A stretch of DNA of 51,739 nucleotides from the sequence record NC_049822.1, one strand, 5' to 3'. A model generated the notes under the pieces. That model was given only the letters and a program-made list of their open reading frames with translations, made no database searches and had not been told where the DNA came from. Shown piece by piece: positions 38,038 to 47,497 of the stretch. This stretch comes from Escherichia phage vB_EcoS_G29-2. The translations under genes and the position numbers were made by a program. How positions within the stretch are numbered: the stretch's first letter is position 1; the number at the start of each line of letters is the position of its first letter.

Positions 38038-38511
38038 TTAGCAATTAGTGCTTTCAGGTTTATACAGGAATCCGCCAGGTTCATAATCTGACATTCTTAC
38101 CACTCGCAACATTTCACGCTTATCACATCTCTTTGTGAGCGGTTTGCCATTGGAATCAAATCGCAGATCTGGACGGCAGAATGACGCGCGATAGCCTTGA
38201 CAACCATATTTCTTGTAATCGTTATGCACCTTTTGAGCGCCAGCGGCTGAAATCATACCGCGAACGCGCCACTGATTTACAGTTTGCTGGCTAACGTTAA
38301 GACGCTTTGCCATTGCTGACACGCTGCCGTAATACTCAATAAGAATGTCAAGCCGTGCTTTTAGTCCGGCGCGCACTTCATCTTTTAAAACATAGTATCC
38401 TGTAGGGCGCTTGCGCTTTTTCTTATCTTTACCCCGTCGAGTTCCGTTATTGCCATTAATTGTGCGCTTGTCAATCTTGCCTGTTGATACCGCGATTCGC
38501 TGCTCTTTCAT
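38038..38511 (-). CDS. HTH DNA-binding protein (putative regulator)
   Basis: helix-turn-helix SVSAMAKRLNVSQQTVNQWRVRG; basic K/R-rich N-terminus. Confidence 0.6.
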   Translation of the reverse strand: MKEQRIAVSTGKIDKRTINGNNGTRRGKDKKKRKRPTGYYVLKDEVRAGLKARLDILIEYYGSVSAMAKRLNVSQQTVNQWRVRGMISAAGAQKVHNDYKKYGCQGYRASFCRPDLRFDSNGKPLTKRCDKREMLRVVRMSDYEPGGFLYKPESTNC

Positions 38512-38523
38512 TATTCATTCTCC

Positions 38524-38569
38524 AATAGCATTTTTTGTTAAACGATGATTTAATGATTGTGTATTATAC
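38524..38569 (+). promoter_or_regulatory. conserved motif promoter for helicase operon (no spacer hairpin, -10 TATTAT)
   Basis: CAATAGCATTTTTTGTTAAAC then 19 bp then TATTAT. Confidence 0.5.
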
Positions 38570-40640
38570 ACTCCAAATGGCATTACTCAAAGGTTTTAGA
38601 ATGATTCCAAACATTGAAAAGCAAATATCAGCACTTGGTGAAGCGGTAATTAAATCCATTCAGGAGCGGTTCACTGTTGGCGATATTGTGCCTTACCCTT
38701 ACCAGTGCGTTGCATACGCTGAGATCGCAAAGCGTATGAAAAATTATGAGCATCCATTCTTTGTTAAAGCGTCGGTATCGGCTGGCAAAACATTGATGTT
38801 TGCAATGGTTGCTCACCAGTGCCGGAAAATGGGCTTAAAAATGATGGTTCTTGCTCGCCAAGCTGAGATTGTGGATCAAGATTCTGAAGAGATAACAAAT
38901 CTTGGCGTGCCGAACTCAATCTATTGCGCAGGGCTGAAGACAAAGAGCGCATACTTTCCGATCGTTGTTGGTTCTGAGGGAACTGTAGTTAATGGACTGT
39001 TTAAAGCGCTTGGCGACTATGTTCCGCACGTTATCGGGATTGACGAGTGTCACCAGGTGGATTGGGAAGACCTTGCCGACGCCATAGAGAAAGATGAGTC
39101 ATTTTTACAAATGACGACAAAGAAAGGCGAAAGAGTACCAAATCCAGATTATGACATAGAGAGCGATAACGAGTGCGAAGAGTTCCTGATTGGTGAGGAT
39201 GGCTTGCCAATGGAGGGAACAGGCCGCACACAATACACTGTCATTATCATGGAAATGATGCGACGTTGCAGGAAAGCATATGGCCATGAACTGCGCATAT
39301 TTGGCATGACTGGATCGGAGTTTCGCGGTGTAGTCCCAATACTGGTAGAAGATAAAAAGCAGAAAGGATTTTGGCGTGAACAGGTTACTAATATTGACAC
39401 CAACTACCTGATCAAGTTCGGTTCTGTTGTTCCGACTAATTTTGGCGACGTTGGCGATCTCGGGTATGACCTTTCAGAGTTTGAGGCATCAAGCGAGGAT
39501 GGCGTTGCAGACTTTGACGCTAAAACGCTTCGCAGGATGGAACAAAAAATTCATGAAGAAGCGACCATGACAAAGCGCATCATGGCGAAAGTGCACGAGA
39601 TCTGTAAAAACCGTAACGGTGTACTTGTGACATGTGCAGGCGAAAGGCACTGTAAAGAGGCGGCGGCAGCATTGCCGCCTGGAACGACTTACAGGATCAT
39701 TACTGGTAAGACTGGCGATAACCAGCGCAAGGAGTGGTTGAAAGAAGCATACGAGGGAAAGGTTAAATACATCTTCCAGGTGCAGGCGCTAACTACTGGC
39801 GTTAACGTGCCGTTTTGGGATACGTCTGTTATTCTGCGTAAGATTGGATCTCTTACGTTGCTGATTCAGCTTTTAGGGCGCGGAATGCGACTGCTTAAGA
39901 AATGGCATAAGGAGCAAGGATTCAAGAAAGATGATCATCTCGTCATGGATTTTTCAGGAACGATGGACGAGCTAGGGGAGCTTTATTTTGATCCGATACT
40001 GGAACAGGCGCAGCACCAGAAGCGATTCAGAAATGGTAAAGATCCGAAGCCTTGTCCTGTTTGCGGAACTCTTAACAGCTATTATGCTCGTCGTTGTATG
40101 CACGTAGACGAAAACGGCAACAGATGCGAGTGGTTCTTTAAATTCAGGACATGTGATGATCAGATTGACCCGCGCACTAAAAAGATTATTCATCGCGGTT
40201 GCGGAACGAAGAATGATATTGCGGCCAGGGTATGCAGACATTGCGACATGTCATTGATTGACCCTAACGAGAAGTTAAGCGGAAAGCACTACACAAAAAA
40301 CGACTGGTTTCAGGTGCAATCTTTCTCGGTTGACATGACGAAAAACCAGAAAGGGATAATATTTAATTATGAGCTTTCCGATGGCATAGACACTTTCAGG
40401 GCGAGAGAGATATTTTTCCCTGAATCTGAGAGCCAAATTTGCCGCGCAAAATGGCGAAGCGTTGCTCTTAAGCACATACCAGATCGCCGTGTTGCTGGCA
40501 TGGTGGCGAGCTATCGTAATGCACGTAAAATCATGCAATATGTGAATCACATCATGCCACCATCGCGTGTAACTCACCGCAAGACTAGCAAGGGTGAAGA
40601 TAATTTGTACAAGAAGGACTTTAATTATGGCAATGACTGA
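38535..40640 (+). CDS. ATP-dependent helicase (SF2, DEAH-type) with C-terminal zinc ribbons
   Basis: Walker A SAGKT, DEAH-like IGIDECHQV, C-terminal CPVCG...C...C clusters; start uncertain (38535 TTG, ATG 38578 or 38601). Confidence 0.75.
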   Translation: MLNDDLMIVYYTLQMALLKGFRMIPNIEKQISALGEAVIKSIQERFTVGDIVPYPYQCVAYAEIAKRMKNYEHPFFVKASVSAGKTLMFAMVAHQCRKMGLKMMVLARQAEIVDQDSEEITNLGVPNSIYCAGLKTKSAYFPIVVGSEGTVVNGLFKALGDYVPHVIGIDECHQVDWEDLADAIEKDESFLQMTTKKGERVPNPDYDIESDNECEEFLIGEDGLPMEGTGRTQYTVIIMEMMRRCRKAYGHELRIFGMTGSEFRGVVPILVEDKKQKGFWREQVTNIDTNYLIKFGSVVPTNFGDVGDLGYDLSEFEASSEDGVADFDAKTLRRMEQKIHEEATMTKRIMAKVHEICKNRNGVLVTCAGERHCKEAAAALPPGTTYRIITGKTGDNQRKEWLKEAYEGKVKYIFQVQALTTGVNVPFWDTSVILRKIGSLTLLIQLLGRGMRLLKKWHKEQGFKKDDHLVMDFSGTMDELGELYFDPILEQAQHQKRFRNGKDPKPCPVCGTLNSYYARRCMHVDENGNRCEWFFKFRTCDDQIDPRTKKIIHRGCGTKNDIAARVCRHCDMSLIDPNEKLSGKHYTKNDWFQVQSFSVDMTKNQKGIIFNYELSDGIDTFRAREIFFPESESQICRAKWRSVALKHIPDRRVAGMVASYRNARKIMQYVNHIMPPSRVTHRKTSKGEDNLYKKDFNYGND

Positions 40641-41046
40641 TAAAGGCGATTATCTGGAGTTTTACGAAAGAGATCCGACGGATACGCTAAAAGAGGAATC
40701 ACACCAGATCGGGGCGTTTCAATGGTTGACTTATGCTTACCCTGAATTGCTGGCATGGCATACGAAAAACGAGGGCGACAAGGGGATCGCCACCGCAATG
40801 ATGGATCAGCAAGCCGGACTCGTTAAGGGCGTAAGTGATTTTATCATCCTGATTGGATTAAAAGGCCGTTATCCGTTTGCAGCAATTGAGATGAAGCGCG
40901 TCAATAAGTCTGGAAAGGGTAAGGCTTCACCAGTCAGTAAGGAGCAAAAAGCCTTCTTACGACGTGTGCGCGAGCTTGGCGGATTCGCTGCCGTAACATA
41001 CGGATATAAGCAATTCATGATCGCTGTAGAATACATGATGAAATAG
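40627..41046 (+). CDS. VRR-NUC domain nuclease
   Basis: PD-(D/E)xK-like SDFIILIG...AIEMKR; start overlaps helicase stop. Confidence 0.6.
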   Translation: MAMTDKGDYLEFYERDPTDTLKEESHQIGAFQWLTYAYPELLAWHTKNEGDKGIATAMMDQQAGLVKGVSDFIILIGLKGRYPFAAIEMKRVNKSGKGKASPVSKEQKAFLRRVRELGGFAAVTYGYKQFMIAVEYMMK

Positions 41047-41088
41047 CACTTTTTGTTAAAACAGGCGCGAAGGATTGCGCCATAATAA
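41042..41088 (+). promoter_or_regulatory. conserved motif promoter (hairpin GGCGC/GCGCC, -10 CATAAT)
   Basis: motif then 19 bp then ATAATA. Confidence 0.55.
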
Positions 41089-41120: not shown

Positions 41121-41822
41121 ATGATCAAAGAAACCGAAGTGACATTTGAACAAATCGAACGAGAAACATTCATTGGCAATGCTCTTGCTACCGGAGGCTA
41201 TTACCAGGCTGTTAAACCAAATCAATATTATAAAGTCACTGGCAACCGCTATAACGGCAGCAATACGCCGGACGTTGTGCGAGATTTGTGGTCTACGCCG
41301 TCTGAGCTTGTCGCATGGATGGAAATCGAATACGGTGATTATGACATCGACGCTGCGGCAAGCAAAGAAAATGCTGTATGTGAAAAATTCTACAGCAAGG
41401 AAACAAATTGCTTAAAGCGTTGGTGGGGTAGTAATAAGCATATCTGGCTGAATCCACCGTACAGCAATATAACGCCTTTCGTTAAGAAAGCGATTGAGCA
41501 AATGGAGCACAATAACCAGATCGACATTCTGTTACCTTGCGACACATCGACAGGATGGTTTTATGAGGCACAACAGAAAGCAGCGGAAATAATCTGGATC
41601 ACTGGCGAAGTTTACCAGGAGGAAGGAATAGAATATTCCAGAACTGGACGGCTTGCTTTCACTTCAGCGCTTACAGGTAAACCAGTGCAGGGAAACAACA
41701 AAGGAAGCGTTATTTTCATCATGCGCGAACTTAAAGAAGGTGAGCAGCAGAAAACTCGATACGTTAAGATCAGCGACATTTGCCCGTCAGTGGCAGAGCG
41801 TCGAGCAAGAAAGCGGAGTTAA
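41121..41822 (+). CDS. dam: DNA N6-adenine methyltransferase (phage Dam family)
   Basis: catalytic motif WLNPPYS (NPPY); size typical of phage Dam. Confidence 0.75.
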   Translation: MIKETEVTFEQIERETFIGNALATGGYYQAVKPNQYYKVTGNRYNGSNTPDVVRDLWSTPSELVAWMEIEYGDYDIDAAASKENAVCEKFYSKETNCLKRWWGSNKHIWLNPPYSNITPFVKKAIEQMEHNNQIDILLPCDTSTGWFYEAQQKAAEIIWITGEVYQEEGIEYSRTGRLAFTSALTGKPVQGNNKGSVIFIMRELKEGEQQKTRYVKISDICPSVAERRARKRS

Positions 41823-45839: not shown

Positions 45840-47423
45840 TTACCCCAGCAATGTTGGATTTACAAAAACAACGCCATTAATCACACAAATATAATTTCTT
45901 TCTTCAAGCATCGGCAGCAGTTGCGTTTCCATACGCTTCATTACGCCAGCCTGGCCAACAAACGGCTTAACTTTTCGTGCAGCCTCATATATGGCGCGAA
46001 CATTCAAGATCCCCTTGTTAGCCTTACCGTGTCGAGTGATAATCTCGATTAGTTTACCCATTTCAGCATCATCACCAGCATAGCCAGAAGCGTTGGCGGC
46101 GCTAATGTATGTTTTGCTCAACTCGCTAAACATCAGCAGTGCTTCTTGAACGGTTTCAACTTCAATCTCTTTCGACTTCTGAGGGTATCCACCAGGATTA
46201 AACCAGTTGCGGATAGTGTGCAAAACCGAAGCAATCCTGATCACCTGCTTATCCATTTTGCCAAGAGCACCGCGCAGCATTGTATGCGAATACTTTCCGC
46301 CATCAGCAAGGTGCGGCTCCATCTCCTGACGAGCTATGTTAAGAACTCGCATTGCTGATTTGCTGATCTTAAGCTGGATGTTTGATTCACTCATGATGTT
46401 ATGGATCAGCTTAAAATATTGACTTTTCAGTTCTCCATCAACAGGCTCATAAGTAGAATCACCGTTATCATCAACAAACTTTCGACGACCTAAAAATGAT
46501 TCCTCACGCACAAGCAAATAACGCTCACTCACACCGATACCGCGCGATCCTGCATCCATGATGGCATTGATTGTTTCATCCTGGGCAATCACCGCCATAC
46601 AGCCAAGAGCTTTAAAACTCATATTGTTGTCAGCGTTTGCACGAGCTATAGAAACATGACCATGATCCCATGCTTTCAGCACAAGTTCGCTGTTGGTTTT
46701 ACGTTCGCTATTAGCATATGTCAGACCTAAAAGGCTGTTAATACTCGTTGCCTCGTCTGAAATCACAGCAAAGTTACCCTGGCGATTGTTGATTCTTGCA
46801 AGTCCTTCCGGCGTGGTGTCGGACACAGGGAAAACAATGTCACACATCTTTTCCAGTTTTTCTTCCAGATCTTCTTTCTCCTGGTACAGAGATTCCATAT
46901 CAGCGCCGGAGCGCTCGCTTTTCATCTCTTTTGCAAGACCTGCCAACTTTGCCTGAATCTTTTTTCTTTCCTTCTTTCGCTGATCGTTAATTCTTTCCAC
47001 TTCTGCAACCATTGGAGCAAGTGCCAGGCTGTTAACGGCAGATTTACCAGTTGAAGGAGGCTGGCTTGTGACAACATAAAGAGCGGTCGGCTGATCCGTT
47101 CCGTGATACTCAACCGTGAAGCGTCCAAGCATTGCAGCAGACACGCAGCCGATAAAATGCATATATGCCGATGATTCAGGGAACTGAACTGAGCGAGCAA
47201 TGTTGCGCGCCAACTTACCAACAACATCAACATCATTGCCAAGAGAAATTACAGGGTAGCGATCATTTCCGTTATTAACATCATTAACCTCACCCCAAAA
47301 GCTGGACGATTGACGGTATCCGTTTGCCTGAATGGACACGCGCACCGGAGACAATCCTTGTGCATCAGCTAATTCGATAATTTGTTTTGGTGTTAGTTTG
47401 TTGGTTTCAAACGAAAAATTCAT
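45840..47423 (-). CDS. P-loop NTPase-containing protein (putative replication-associated)
   Basis: 527 aa from RBS-supported ATG (GGAG); Walker A-like SQPPSTGKSA. Confidence 0.6.
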   Translation of the reverse strand: MNFSFETNKLTPKQIIELADAQGLSPVRVSIQANGYRQSSSFWGEVNDVNNGNDRYPVISLGNDVDVVGKLARNIARSVQFPESSAYMHFIGCVSAAMLGRFTVEYHGTDQPTALYVVTSQPPSTGKSAVNSLALAPMVAEVERINDQRKKERKKIQAKLAGLAKEMKSERSGADMESLYQEKEDLEEKLEKMCDIVFPVSDTTPEGLARINNRQGNFAVISDEATSINSLLGLTYANSERKTNSELVLKAWDHGHVSIARANADNNMSFKALGCMAVIAQDETINAIMDAGSRGIGVSERYLLVREESFLGRRKFVDDNGDSTYEPVDGELKSQYFKLIHNIMSESNIQLKISKSAMRVLNIARQEMEPHLADGGKYSHTMLRGALGKMDKQVIRIASVLHTIRNWFNPGGYPQKSKEIEVETVQEALLMFSELSKTYISAANASGYAGDDAEMGKLIEIITRHGKANKGILNVRAIYEAARKVKPFVGQAGVMKRMETQLLPMLEERNYICVINGVVFVNPTLLG

Positions 47424-47452
47424 TGATGATAACTCCTTTTTTTGATGCGGCA

Positions 47453-47497
47453 ATAATACCGCACCAATGCTACCCGCATTTAACAAAAAATGCTATT
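47453..47497 (-). promoter_or_regulatory. conserved motif promoter (variant, -10 TATTAT in hairpin loop)
   Basis: AATAGCATTTTTTGTTAAAT then 19 bp then TATTAT. Confidence 0.5.

What the first reader, a model, noticed from the sequence alone, without database searches (positions are those of the whole stretch)
38535..41046. SF2 helicase with C-terminal zinc ribbons, translationally coupled to a VRR-NUC nuclease
The helicase C-terminus carries two Cys-x2-Cys pairs (CPVCG...C...C and CGTKNDIAARVCRHC), and its stop overlaps the start of a VRR-NUC nuclease. This looks like a replication-fork processing pair. The helicase start is ambiguous: 38535 would be TTG, and ATG candidates are 38578 and 38601.
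Basis: partly seen in the sequence, partly recalled or inferred. Interest (0 to 1): 0.35.

Follow-up and report, generated by a model that had tools for sequence, protein, structure and literature searches.

The report
Phage RadD-like helicase plus junction nuclease
This is an ordinary, already annotated gene pair of a T1-like coliphage: a RadD-family DNA motor protein with two zinc ribbons, followed by a small VRR-NUC nuclease that probably cuts branched DNA.

Summary
The window is a T1-like coliphage (Drexlerviridae, Hanrivervirus), about 97% identical to phage herni. In herni the same two genes are annotated as 'DNA helicase' and 'VRR-NUC domain-containing protein'.

The helicase CDS is 38601-40640 (679 aa). 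The TTG at 38535 lies inside a repeated promoter-associated element, and no homologue has the N-terminal extension.

The protein is a full-length relative of E. coli RadD. RadD is by far the best hit by sequence, profile and fold. Eight conserved cysteines align one-to-one with the ligands of RadD's two crystallographic zinc ribbons. These ribbons sit before a ~130-aa C-terminal domain, not at the C-terminus.

The VRR-NUC CDS is 40627-41046. It overlaps the helicase stop by 14 nt, keeps the E..D..ExK catalytic residues, and its model best matches psNUC, a proven dimeric Holliday-junction resolvase.

The pairing is strongly conserved: 83 of 85 phage loci have VRR-NUC downstream, usually abutting the helicase gene. 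In distant phages the pair sits next to exonuclease, annealase (Erf or Bet-like) and SSB genes.

Most likely function (inferred): a motor plus resolvase that process branched recombination/replication intermediates.

Novelty is low. The RadD assignment and the start-codon call are annotation refinements.

The parts
38524..38542 (+). Copy of the T1-family direct repeat / promoter-associated element (AATAGCAtTTTTTGTTAAA). It contains the TTG at 38535 that opens the maximal ORF.
   Evidence: TTTTTGTTAAA has 18 hits at <=1 mismatch against 4.1 +/- 2.0 expected. The copies align as aATAGCAcTTTTTGTTAAAa - N19-20 - cATAAT-like, always upstream of and co-oriented with a gene. The same 21-nt repeat is described in phage TLS, about 76 nt upstream of start codons (PMC11447400). 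Here the repeat lies 77 nt upstream of ATG 38601.
38562..38567 (+). -10-like hexamer TATTAT downstream of the repeat. It implies a transcript start near 38574. It overlaps a minus-strand TATAAT (38568..38563) of a divergent sigma-70-like promoter for the Cro/YdaS-like regulator gene.
   Evidence: Alignment of the repeat copies. Minus-strand promoter TTGAGT-16-TATAAT, 10 of 12 matches. Inferred, not mapped.
38589..38593 (+). Shine-Dalgarno AAAGG, 7 nt upstream of the helicase ATG.
   Evidence: Read from the sequence.
38601..40640 (+). RadD-family SF2 ATPase/helicase CDS, 679 aa. Layout: RecA-like domain 1 (~res 28-250, with a ~50-60-aa variable insertion between motifs II and III), RecA-like domain 2 (~255-455), two zinc ribbons (485-548), C-terminal domain (~565-675).
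   Evidence: The herni gp06 annotation starts at the equivalent ATG. All homologues start at MIPNIEKQ, and relatives at 79-84% identity have an in-frame stop 3-4 codons upstream. PDB phmmer: RadD E=4.5e-41, next hit 1.9e-4. BLASTP to RadD: 26% identity over 657 columns, E=4e-48. NCBIfam heli_RadD_YejH: E=1.7e-58. AF2 model pLDDT 84. Foldseek: RadD 7r7j E=2.4e-34, next 2.2e-13.
38784..38792 (+). Walker A / motif I: G62-K63-T64. K63 is equivalent to RadD K37.
   Evidence: Alignment to RadD. Invariant in alignments A3 and A5.
39042..39053 (+). Motif II, DECH (D148-H151), equivalent to RadD D117-E118-C119-H120.
   Evidence: for the role of RadD Asp117/Glu118.
40053..40127 (+). Zinc ribbon 1: C485, C488, C499, C509, equivalent to RadD ZF1 C384, C387, C411, C425.
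   Evidence: BLASTP and MAFFT alignments. The four positions are Cys in 123-125 of 127 family representatives. RadD ligands from the crystal structure paper (PMC9049331).
40152..40244 (+). Zinc ribbon 2: C518, C534, C545, C548, equivalent to RadD ZF2 C434, C437, C448, C451. The first knuckle is expanded to C-x15-C.
   Evidence: Homologue P0104 lacks the 13-residue loop and has a canonical CPEC, like RadD's CPQC.
40614..40618 (+). Shine-Dalgarno AAGGA for the VRR-NUC gene, inside the 3' end of the helicase CDS, 8 nt upstream of ATG 40627.
   Evidence: Read from the sequence.
40627..40640 (+). 14-nt overlap between the VRR-NUC start and the helicase stop (ATGGCAATGACTGA).
   Evidence: The same -14 arrangement, or -26 to +28 nt variants, occurs in most of the related loci.
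40627..41046 (+). VRR-NUC nuclease CDS, 139 aa. PD-(D/E)xK residues E23, D71, E88, K90. One short helix (res 54-62) lies between the first two core strands.
   Evidence: Pfam PF08774 E=1.3e-9. Invariant residues in alignment A2. AF2 pLDDT 82.6. Foldseek best hit 4QBL (psNUC): TM 0.64/0.72, rmsd 2.7 A. 4QBL is psNUC according to PMC4103454. herni gp07 has the same coordinates.
41042..41061 (+). Next copy of the promoter-associated repeat, immediately after the VRR-NUC stop and 79 nt upstream of the dam ATG (41121). It marks the downstream boundary of the two-gene unit.
   Evidence: Dam methyltransferase by Pfam, E=6e-61.

Best explanation
The region is a two-gene unit of a T1-like virulent coliphage.

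Gene 1 (38601-40640) encodes a phage-lineage member of the RadD (YejH) family of SF2 ATPases. It has two RecA-like motor domains, two Cys4 zinc ribbons and a C-terminal domain.

Gene 2 (40627-41046) encodes a stand-alone VRR-NUC PD-(D/E)xK nuclease of the psNUC type. It is expected to be a homodimeric four-way-junction resolvase.

Shown here: domain identities, catalytic and zinc-ligand residues, the start codon, the overlap, and the conservation of the pairing.

Inferred:
- Both genes are transcribed from the repeat-associated promoter at about 38524-38567.
- The nuclease is translated by ribosomes terminating or re-initiating at the 14-nt overlap, which ties the expression of the two proteins together.
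- The motor binds and remodels or branch-migrates branched DNA (D-loops, three- and four-strand joints, reversed forks). These joints would be made by the phage exonuclease/Erf/SSB system or by host RecA.
- The VRR-NUC dimer then cleaves the junctions. This supports recombination-dependent replication and removes branches from concatemers before headful packaging.
- The pair would be a functional analogue of RuvAB-RuvC or RecG-RusA.
For: Identity of the phage: 96.8% nucleotide identity to Escherichia phage herni, with the same two genes annotated there.

RadD relationship:
- PDB phmmer: RadD E=4.5e-41 against 1.9e-4 for the next hit.
- Full-length BLASTP, E=4e-48.
- NCBIfam RadD model, E=1.7e-58, against 1.5e-5 for the next family.
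- Foldseek: RadD 2.4e-34 against 2.2e-13 for the next hit.
- Eight Cys equal the RadD ZF1/ZF2 ligands and are conserved in >=122/127 representatives.
- Motifs I, II, III and VI are invariant.

VRR-NUC:
- Pfam hit above the cut-off.
- E23, D71, E88 and K90 are invariant.
- The fold matches psNUC, which is dimeric and resolves Holliday junctions symmetrically (PMC4103454).

Pairing:
- 83 of 85 phage loci with a RadD-like gene have a VRR-NUC gene downstream on the same strand. In most, the predicted start lies within -26 to +28 nt of the helicase stop.
- The pairing holds down to 26% helicase identity in Yersinia, Brucella and Vibrio phages and in phage-like contigs of bacterial assemblies.

Recombination context:
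- In Klebsiella K49PH164C2, Skatevirus BS5, Vibrio 1.286.O and Yersinia YenM_39 the pair sits directly beside exonuclease and annealase (Erf or Bet-like) genes, plus SSB where annotated.
- The window itself encodes exonuclease VIII-like, Erf and SSB proteins.
- The phage SSB ends in MDFDDDIPF, the peptide RadD binds (PMC10238739).
- A separate DUF3987 'DNA helicase' and a primase are available for replication proper.

Prior annotation:
- The TLS paper already lists Gp59, next to helicase Gp58, as a 'Holiday junction recombinase'.
- One GenBank record names the helicase homologue 'Holliday junction branch migration helicase'.

Transcription unit: promoter-associated repeats bracket the pair.
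Against: - No biochemical or genetic data exist for this protein pair in the sources searched.
- E. coli RadD has no detectable helicase or branch-migration activity by itself and acts only with RecA (PMC8887467). 'Branch-migration motor' is therefore an extrapolation, and the partner recombinase in the phage (RecA or Erf) is unknown.
- The protein scores 198 bits against the 720-bit equivalog cut-off of the NCBIfam RadD model. It is a relative of RadD, not an orthologue.
- Of the three Arg that frame RadD's SSB pocket, only one aligned position (R232) is conserved across the phage family.
- No physical interaction or fusion of the two proteins was found.
- Some VRR-NUC proteins (saNUC, stNUC) are weak or less specific nucleases in vitro.
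- Translational coupling is inferred from geometry only.
Confidence: 0.6

Rival explanations
1. Replication helicase. The SF2 protein is the phage's replication-initiation or replicative helicase, working with the divergently encoded primase. The VRR-NUC gene is merely a neighbour.
For: - The gene lies next to the primase and a Cro-like regulator in the early region.
- The TLS paper suggests that primase Gp56 and helicase Gp58 'might initiate replication'.
- T1-like phages lack a DNA polymerase gene, as stated in the same paper.
Against: - The closest characterised relative, RadD, is a repair/recombination accessory ATPase with no unwinding activity.
- SF2 RadD-type proteins are not known replicative helicases (established knowledge).
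- The phage has a separate DUF3987/phrog_2373 'DNA helicase'.
- The near-universal pairing with a junction nuclease, and the placement beside exonuclease and annealase genes in distant phages, point to recombination.
Confidence: 0.12
2. Stalled-fork processing. The motor regresses or remodels stalled replication forks and the nuclease cleaves them to restart replication. Recombination joints would not be the main substrate.
For: - RadD binds synthetic replication forks and partly substitutes for RecG.
- psNUC cleaves replication-fork substrates to an intermediate degree, and stNUC cuts nicked three-way junctions.
- The SSB tail is identical to the RadD-binding peptide.
Against: - This is not distinguishable from the main explanation with sequence data, because reversed forks are four-way junctions.
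- The gene neighbourhood in distant phages is a recombination module (exonuclease, annealase, SSB), not a replisome module.
Confidence: 0.2
3. Offensive or anti-defence translocase-nuclease. The pair works like a split HsdR- or SauUSI-type enzyme, with an SF2 translocase delivering a PD-(D/E)xK nuclease. It would degrade host or competitor DNA.
For: - After RadD, the next-best hits are type I restriction R subunits and SauUSI.
- VRR-Nuc domains are used as DNA-breaking toxins in T6SS effectors (PMC9635880).
Against: - Those hits are 20 or more orders of magnitude weaker than RadD.
- The RadD-specific zinc ribbons and C-terminal domain are retained.
- The nuclease fold is closest to a dimeric junction resolvase and lacks toxin-type N-terminal domains.
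- No immunity-like gene was seen beside it in the loci examined.
Confidence: 0.05

Closest known systems
E. coli RadD (YejH), SF2 DNA-repair ATPase (PDB 6JDE, 7R7J, 8H5Y/Z)
   Same: - Same domain order over the full length: RecA-like 1, RecA-like 2, ZF1, ZF2, C-terminal domain.
- Motifs I, II (DECH), III and VI are shared.
- All eight zinc-ligand cysteines align.
- RadD is the best hit by sequence, profile and fold.
   Different: - Only 26% identity, and 198 bits against the 720-bit equivalog cut-off.
- About 50-60 aa hypervariable insertion between motifs II and III.
- The first knuckle of ZF2 is expanded from CxxC to C-x15-C.
- Shorter ZF1 loops.
- Two of the three SSB-pocket arginines are not conserved in the phage family.
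- Always paired with a VRR-NUC gene, whereas E. coli radD sits between rsuA and rplY with no nuclease neighbour.
- Activity and RecA dependence are untested.
psNUC, stNUC and saNUC: stand-alone bacterial/phage VRR-NUC Holliday-junction resolvases (PDB 4QBL, 4QBO, 4QBN)
   Same: - PF08774 domain.
- E..D..ExK active-site residues.
- Alpha-beta core with a short helix between the first two strands, as in the psNUC subset.
- Best structural match is 4QBL.
   Different: - About 20% identity; there is no sequence-level PDB hit at E <= 10.
- It has an N-terminal beta-hairpin (res 3-12) and a flexible loop at 91-103.
- Dimerisation and junction cleavage are untested.
Helicase plus VRR-NUC genes of described T1-like phages (herni gp06/gp07; TLS Gp58/Gp59; KMI8 ORF31/32; AAS23)
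   Same: Orthologous gene pair in the same order and context. It is annotated as helicase plus VRR-NUC or 'Holiday junction recombinase'.
   Different: In the papers read, the helicase carries only generic labels (DNA helicase, SSL2 domain) and is discussed as a possible replication initiator. No paper in the searched library uses 'RadD-like'.
RuvAB-RuvC, RecG-RusA, T4 UvsW-endonuclease VII (motor plus resolvase systems)
   Same: Proposed logic only: an ATP-driven motor on branched DNA plus a dimeric junction nuclease.
   Different: No homology to RuvB (AAA+), RuvC, RusA or endonuclease VII. The comparison is functional analogy drawn from established knowledge and was not tested here.

Membership tests
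SF2 helicase superfamily | Two RecA-like domains with motifs I (GKT), II (DExH), III and VI (QxxGRxxR) | tested here: met
   G62-K63-T64, D148-E-C-H151, T237-G-S239 and Q423..G426-R427..R430 are invariant. ResIII and Helicase_C score above the Pfam cut-offs.
RadD (YejH) family | Full-length collinear homology to RadD, including the C-terminal domain | tested here: met
   BLASTP covers 657 columns, E=4e-48. The NCBIfam RadD profile is matched up to position 562 of 573. Foldseek aligns 687 columns with 7r7j, E=2.4e-34.
RadD (YejH) family | Two tandem Cys4 zinc ribbons (ZF1 C384/387/411/425; ZF2 C434/437/448/451) | tested here: met
   C485/488/499/509 and C518/534/545/548 align one-to-one and are conserved in >=122/127 relatives. 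Metal binding itself was not tested.
RadD (YejH) family | Score above the NCBIfam equivalog cut-off (orthologue-level membership) | tested here: not met
   198.3 bits against a cut-off of 720. Other phage and metagenome relatives score 214-452 bits. It is a homologue in the RadD superfamily, not a RadD equivalog.
RadD (YejH) family | SSB C-terminal-tail binding pocket framed by R21, R49, R145 | tested here: inconclusive
   The aligned residues are K47, R75 and R232 in the window protein. Only R232 is invariant in the phage family; K44 and R45 nearby are >=90% conserved. The phage SSB has the MDFDDDIPF tip.
RadD (YejH) family | RecA-dependent acceleration of strand exchange; DNA-independent, SSB-stimulated ATPase | not testable with these tools
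   These are biochemical properties from PMC8887467 and PMC10238739.
VRR-NUC (PF08774), stand-alone resolvase type | Pfam domain above the gathering threshold | tested here: met
   38.6 bits against 23.8, E=1.3e-9.
VRR-NUC (PF08774), stand-alone resolvase type | PD-(D/E)xK catalytic residues | tested here: met
   E23, D71, E88 and K90 are invariant in 24 homologues. D..ExK is also kept in the Brucella and Vibrio phage counterparts.
VRR-NUC (PF08774), stand-alone resolvase type | Hjc-like alpha-beta fold without the two-helix FAN1 insertion that blocks dimerisation | tested here: met
   The AF2 model has one 9-residue helix (54-62) between the first two core strands. Best match is psNUC 4QBL, TM 0.64/0.72; FAN1 hits cover only ~58-92 columns. 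The criterion comes from PMC4103454.
VRR-NUC (PF08774), stand-alone resolvase type | Homodimer that cleaves four-way junctions symmetrically | not testable with these tools
   Requires protein work. No multimer prediction was available.
Translationally coupled gene pair | Stop/start overlap with an SD inside the upstream gene, and no intervening promoter or terminator on the coding strand | tested here: met
   14-nt overlap, with AAGGA 8 nt upstream. No + strand promoter- or terminator-like site was found at the junction (about 40600-40650). The arrangement is conserved in related loci. Actual coupling was not tested.

The most novel reading that the evidence does not exclude
The RadD-family motor and the VRR-NUC resolvase form a dedicated, physically cooperating branch-migration/resolution machine. 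It would be conserved across very different phages and would work with the phage Erf-type annealase and SSB, independently of RecA. That would mean the enigmatic RadD family is at root a junction-processing motor, and the phage pair would give a simple system for working out what RadD does.
Probability: 0.3. Interest if true: 0.5.

Novelty: already known. Interest (0 to 1): 0.2.

Why it matters
For genome annotation the result is routine. The pair is already annotated in closely related phages, and the nuclease has been called a Holliday-junction enzyme in the TLS paper.

Two refinements are useful:
- The start codon is fixed at 38601. The TTG lies inside a promoter-associated repeat.
- The generic 'DNA helicase' of T1-like phages can be named a RadD-family protein with both RadD zinc ribbons.

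The near-obligate pairing of RadD-like genes with a junction resolvase holds across Drexlerviridae, Skatevirus, and Brucella, Yersinia and Vibrio phages. This is circumstantial support for the idea that RadD-type motors act on four-way or branched recombination intermediates, which is still unresolved for E. coli RadD.

Tried and rejected
- Start codons TTG 38535, ATG 38553, GTG 38559 and ATG 38577 were rejected. They lie in or upstream of the promoter-like element. Homologues lack the extension, and relatives at 79-84% identity have an in-frame stop 3-4 codons before the conserved ATG.
- The first HMMER alignment to RadD paired the phage C509/C518 with RadD C411/C425. That left ZF2 with three Cys and a possible His ligand (H531 in 679-aa numbering). 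I rejected it because that His position is K or V in homologues. BLASTP and MAFFT give a consistent 8-to-8 Cys alignment, supported by P0104's canonical CPEC.
- A PDB sequence search with the VRR-NUC protein found nothing at E <= 10. The link to solved structures needed the AF2 model and Foldseek.
- Pfam calls no zinc-ribbon domain in the window protein. Only weak sub-threshold DZR/zf hits appear in distant relatives.
- The search for related loci with the 39-sequence alignment A4 failed because no stretch was conserved enough. It worked when repeated with the 10-sequence alignment A5.
- I searched for helicase-VRR-NUC fusions as Rosetta-stone evidence and found none. The long family members are intein-containing or have uncharacterised C-terminal extensions.
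- Conservation of the SSB pocket is inconclusive.
- The TLS paper notes GATC clustering in the helicase gene. It is not seen here: 14 sites in 2 kb against a genome mean of 5.6 per kb.
- The AAS23 paper attributes 4QBL to SETP3. I checked this against the primary paper: 4QBL is psNUC.
Full report
**What the window is.** The 2.8 kb around the finding is 96-97% identical at the nucleotide level to Escherichia phages herni, damhaus and grams and to Salmonella phage slyngel (Drexlerviridae, Tempevirinae, Hanrivervirus). In herni the same stretch is annotated gp06 'DNA helicase' (equivalent to window 38601-40640) and gp07 'VRR-NUC domain-containing protein' (40627-41046). The flanking genes are, upstream and divergent, a primase and a Cro-like regulator. 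Downstream lie a Dam methyltransferase, small ORFs, a repair exonuclease and the lysis genes. Pfam on the window's own ORFs reproduces this picture. The finding is therefore a real gene pair that has already been annotated in a T1-like phage.

**Checking the observation.** The maximal ORF runs from TTG 38535 to the TGA at 40638-40640. The VRR-NUC ORF has its ATG at 40627, giving a 14-nt overlap, with an AAGGA Shine-Dalgarno 8 nt upstream inside the helicase gene. Pfam gives ResIII (E=6e-8) and Helicase_C (E=2e-8) for the first protein and VRR_NUC (38.6 bits, cut-off 23.8) for the second.

**The start codon.** Four lines of evidence agree on ATG 38601.
- Every homologue, from 97% down to 52% identity, begins at the residues equivalent to MIPNIEKQ.
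- In relatives at 79-84% identity an in-frame stop lies only 3-4 codons upstream of that ATG, so the extension cannot exist there. Only the ~98% identical genomes keep the frame open.
- AAAGG lies 7 nt upstream of 38601.
- The TTG at 38535 is part of a repeated element, aATAGCAcTTTTTGTTAAAa, followed after 19-20 nt by a cATAAT-like hexamer.

On the last point, TTTTTGTTAAA has 18 hits at <=1 mismatch in the window against 4.1 +/- 2.0 expected, and none of 100 shuffles reached 18. The copies sit upstream of genes and point the same way. The same 21-nt direct repeat was described for phage TLS (consensus aaATAGCACnnnTTGnTAAAA, about 76 nt upstream of start codons, also present in T1, Rtp and Rogue1). 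Here the repeat begins at 38524, 77 nt before 38601. With the -10-like TATTAT at 38562-38567, transcription would begin near 38574, downstream of all the other candidate starts. This is inferred, not mapped. A second copy at 41042-41061 follows the VRR-NUC stop directly, so the two genes form a unit bracketed by two such elements.

**What the helicase is.** A sequence search of all PDB chains gives E. coli RadD (6JDE, 7R7J, 8H5Y/Z) at E=4.5e-41; the next hit, SauUSI, is at 1.9e-4. BLASTP against RadD taken from the K-12 genome aligns 657 columns end to end at 26% identity, E=4e-48. NCBIfam's RadD model is the top hit (E=1.7e-58; the next is 1.5e-5). However, the score is 198 bits against an equivalog cut-off of 720, and other phage and metagenome relatives score 214-452 bits. 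An AlphaFold2 model built from 41 homologues (mean pLDDT 84, pTM 0.71) finds RadD structures first in the PDB (E=2.4e-34, about 687 aligned columns) and SauUSI/HsdR-type enzymes next at 1e-13 to 1e-12. The global TM-score is only 0.46-0.55 with a high rmsd, which I attribute to different inter-domain orientation and the insertions. Motif I (G62-K63-T64; K63 = RadD K37), motif II (D148-E-C-H151 = RadD D117-H120), motif III (T237-G-S) and motif VI (Q423..GR..R430) are invariant in the family.

**The zinc ribbons.** The 2022 RadD-ADP structure defined two zinc sites: ZF1 (C384, C387, C411, C425) and ZF2 (C434, C437, C448, C451). A C437A mutant is non-functional in vivo (PMC9049331). In BLASTP and MAFFT alignments the phage C485, C488, C499, C509 and C518, C534, C545, C548 match these eight positions exactly. 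Each is Cys in 122-125 of 127 representatives drawn from a search of 1.8 billion cluster representatives. The second string (CGTKNDIAARVCRHC) contains three ZF2 ligands; the fourth is C518, because the first knuckle carries a 13-residue insertion (C-x15-C instead of CxxC). Homologue P0104 lacks this loop and reads CPEC, like RadD's CPQC. The ribbons are followed by a conserved ~130-aa C-terminal domain (strands 569-605, helices 612-645, strands 656-673) that aligns with RadD's C-terminal domain. They are internal, not C-terminal. Relative to RadD there is also a ~50-60-aa insertion between motifs II and III, whose centre (about res 173-205) is hypervariable in length among relatives.

**What the nuclease is.** No PDB chain matches by sequence. 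[quoted passage not shown] According to the primary paper 4QBL is psNUC. In that paper psNUC is dimeric, binds four-way junctions with sub-nanomolar affinity and cuts them symmetrically to give ligatable nicks. stNUC and saNUC are weaker (PMC4103454). E23, D71, E88 and K90 are invariant in 24 homologues, which is the E..D..ExK constellation of Hjc-like PD-(D/E)xK enzymes. Between the first two core strands the model has a single 9-residue helix, as in the psNUC-like subset. It does not have the two long helices that make FAN1 monomeric.

**Is the pairing meaningful?** I collected 80 viral contigs encoding relatives at 42-98% identity, plus five annotated phages down to 26% identity. I scanned their ORFs with HMMs built from the helicase and VRR-NUC alignments.
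- 83 of 85 loci have a VRR-NUC gene downstream on the same strand.
- Of the two exceptions, one locus ends at the helicase stop. The other (Vibrio phage 1.286.O) has a divergent homologue found by profile-profile comparison (90% probability). The Brucella Tb-like phage protein gives 95.7%.
- In most loci the predicted start lies within -26 to +28 nt of the helicase stop (-14, -4, -1, +1 and +2 are common). These start predictions are approximate.
- In three loci an HNH homing-endonuclease gene has been inserted exactly between the two genes.
- The pair also appears on phage-like contigs in bacterial assemblies.
- E. coli radD itself has no nuclease neighbour.
- No fusion of the two proteins was found.

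**Context and mechanism.** In Klebsiella phage K49PH164C2, Skatevirus BS5, Vibrio phage 1.286.O and Yersinia phage YenM_39 the pair is directly followed by exonuclease VIII-like and Erf or Bet-like genes, plus SSB where annotated. In the window these genes lie at 30119-32736 (DUF3799/exonuclease VIII, Erf, SSB). The phage SSB ends in ...MDFDDDIPF, identical to the peptide RadD binds with a Kd of about 5 uM (PMC10238739). The three Arg of RadD's SSB pocket align with K47, R75 and R232, but only R232 is conserved in the phage family, so an SSB interaction remains open. A separate DUF3987/phrog_2373 helicase (45840-47486, minus strand) and a primase are candidates for fork functions.

RadD has no stand-alone helicase activity. 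It accelerates RecA strand exchange in an ATPase-dependent way and partly backs up RecG (PMC8887467). Putting this together, the best-supported reading has two steps. First, the RadD-like motor remodels or branch-migrates joint molecules and reversed forks generated during recombination-dependent replication. Second, the VRR-NUC dimer resolves them, leaving unbranched concatemers for packaging. The domain identities and the conserved pairing are shown. The cooperation, the substrates and the partner recombinase are inferred.

**Comparison with what is known, and novelty.** The pair is annotated in GenBank for many Drexlerviridae and listed in phage papers (KMI8 ORF31/32; AAS23). The TLS paper names Gp59 a 'Holiday junction recombinase' beside helicase Gp58, and discusses the helicase as a possible replication initiator. 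One GenBank record labels the homologue 'Holliday junction branch migration helicase'. No paper in the searchable library uses 'RadD-like'. So the explicit RadD-family assignment with both zinc ribbons, and the survey of the pairing, may be modest additions. Even so, any HHpred or PDB search would show the RadD relationship. I rate the finding as already known and of low interest, with a moderately interesting open question about what RadD-type motors do.

Noticed in passing
window 1262, 1726, 6774, 15256(-), 19016(-), 29683(-), 38532, 41050, 42070, 45320(-), 47489(-), 48165(-), 50215(-), 50721(-), 51597(-): About 15 copies of a conserved intergenic element: aATAGCAcTTTTTGTTAAAa, then N19-20 (often a GC-rich hairpin), then a cATAAT-like hexamer, then ...CATCGAAACGA..GAGGA..ATG. 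Each copy is co-oriented with the downstream gene. It matches the 21-nt direct repeat described for phage TLS (PMC11447400), whose role (promoter, UP-element or 'stoperator') is still undetermined there. The spacing from TTGTTA to the -10-like hexamer (21-22 nt) does not fit a standard sigma-70 -35/-10 pair.
   Followed up: partly
window 32287-32736 (+): The phage SSB (phrog_44; no Pfam hit at 1e-3) ends in PPMDFDDDIPF. This is identical to the E. coli SSB C-terminal tip that recruits RadD and other SSB-interacting proteins, so the phage SSB could tap the host SSB interactome.
   Followed up: partly
search results (GenBank MG065640-MG065681): About 19-20 unannotated GenBank records named 'Campylobacter phage ...' (host Campylobacter jejuni, ~47-50 kb) are 96-99% identical to this E. 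coli T1-like phage in the helicase region. This looks like host misattribution or contamination of those records.
   Followed up: no
L043 5901-6431; L051 5997-6470; L052 (related phage loci): In a few relatives an HNH-type homing endonuclease gene (DHINHIRDDNRIENLRLV motif) is inserted exactly between the helicase and VRR-NUC genes. Several distant helicase homologues (P0164, P0184, P0190, P0193, P0224, P0152) carry inteins in RecA-like domain 1.
   Followed up: partly
window 38563-38590 (-): A sigma-70-like promoter on the minus strand (TTGAGT-16-TATAAT, 10/12) faces the Cro/YdaS-like regulator gene (38038-38511, minus strand). Its -10 overlaps the plus-strand -10-like TATTAT of the helicase unit, giving a compact divergent control region of 89 bp.
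   Followed up: no
window 45840-47486 (-): A second helicase-like gene (DUF3987, phrog_2373 'DNA helicase', 548 aa) is the more likely fork or primase-associated helicase of this polymerase-less phage.
   Followed up: no
window 39117-39215 (helicase residues ~173-205): A hypervariable, indel-rich segment lies inside the insertion between helicase motifs II and III. It ranges from absent to about 50 aa longer among relatives that are otherwise 60-97% identical. Its function is unknown.
   Followed up: no
whole window: GATC is over-represented genome-wide: 292 sites against ~195 expected from base composition. This is consistent with the phage-encoded Dam methyltransferase (41121-41822). There is no special clustering in the helicase gene, unlike what was reported for TLS.
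   Followed up: partly
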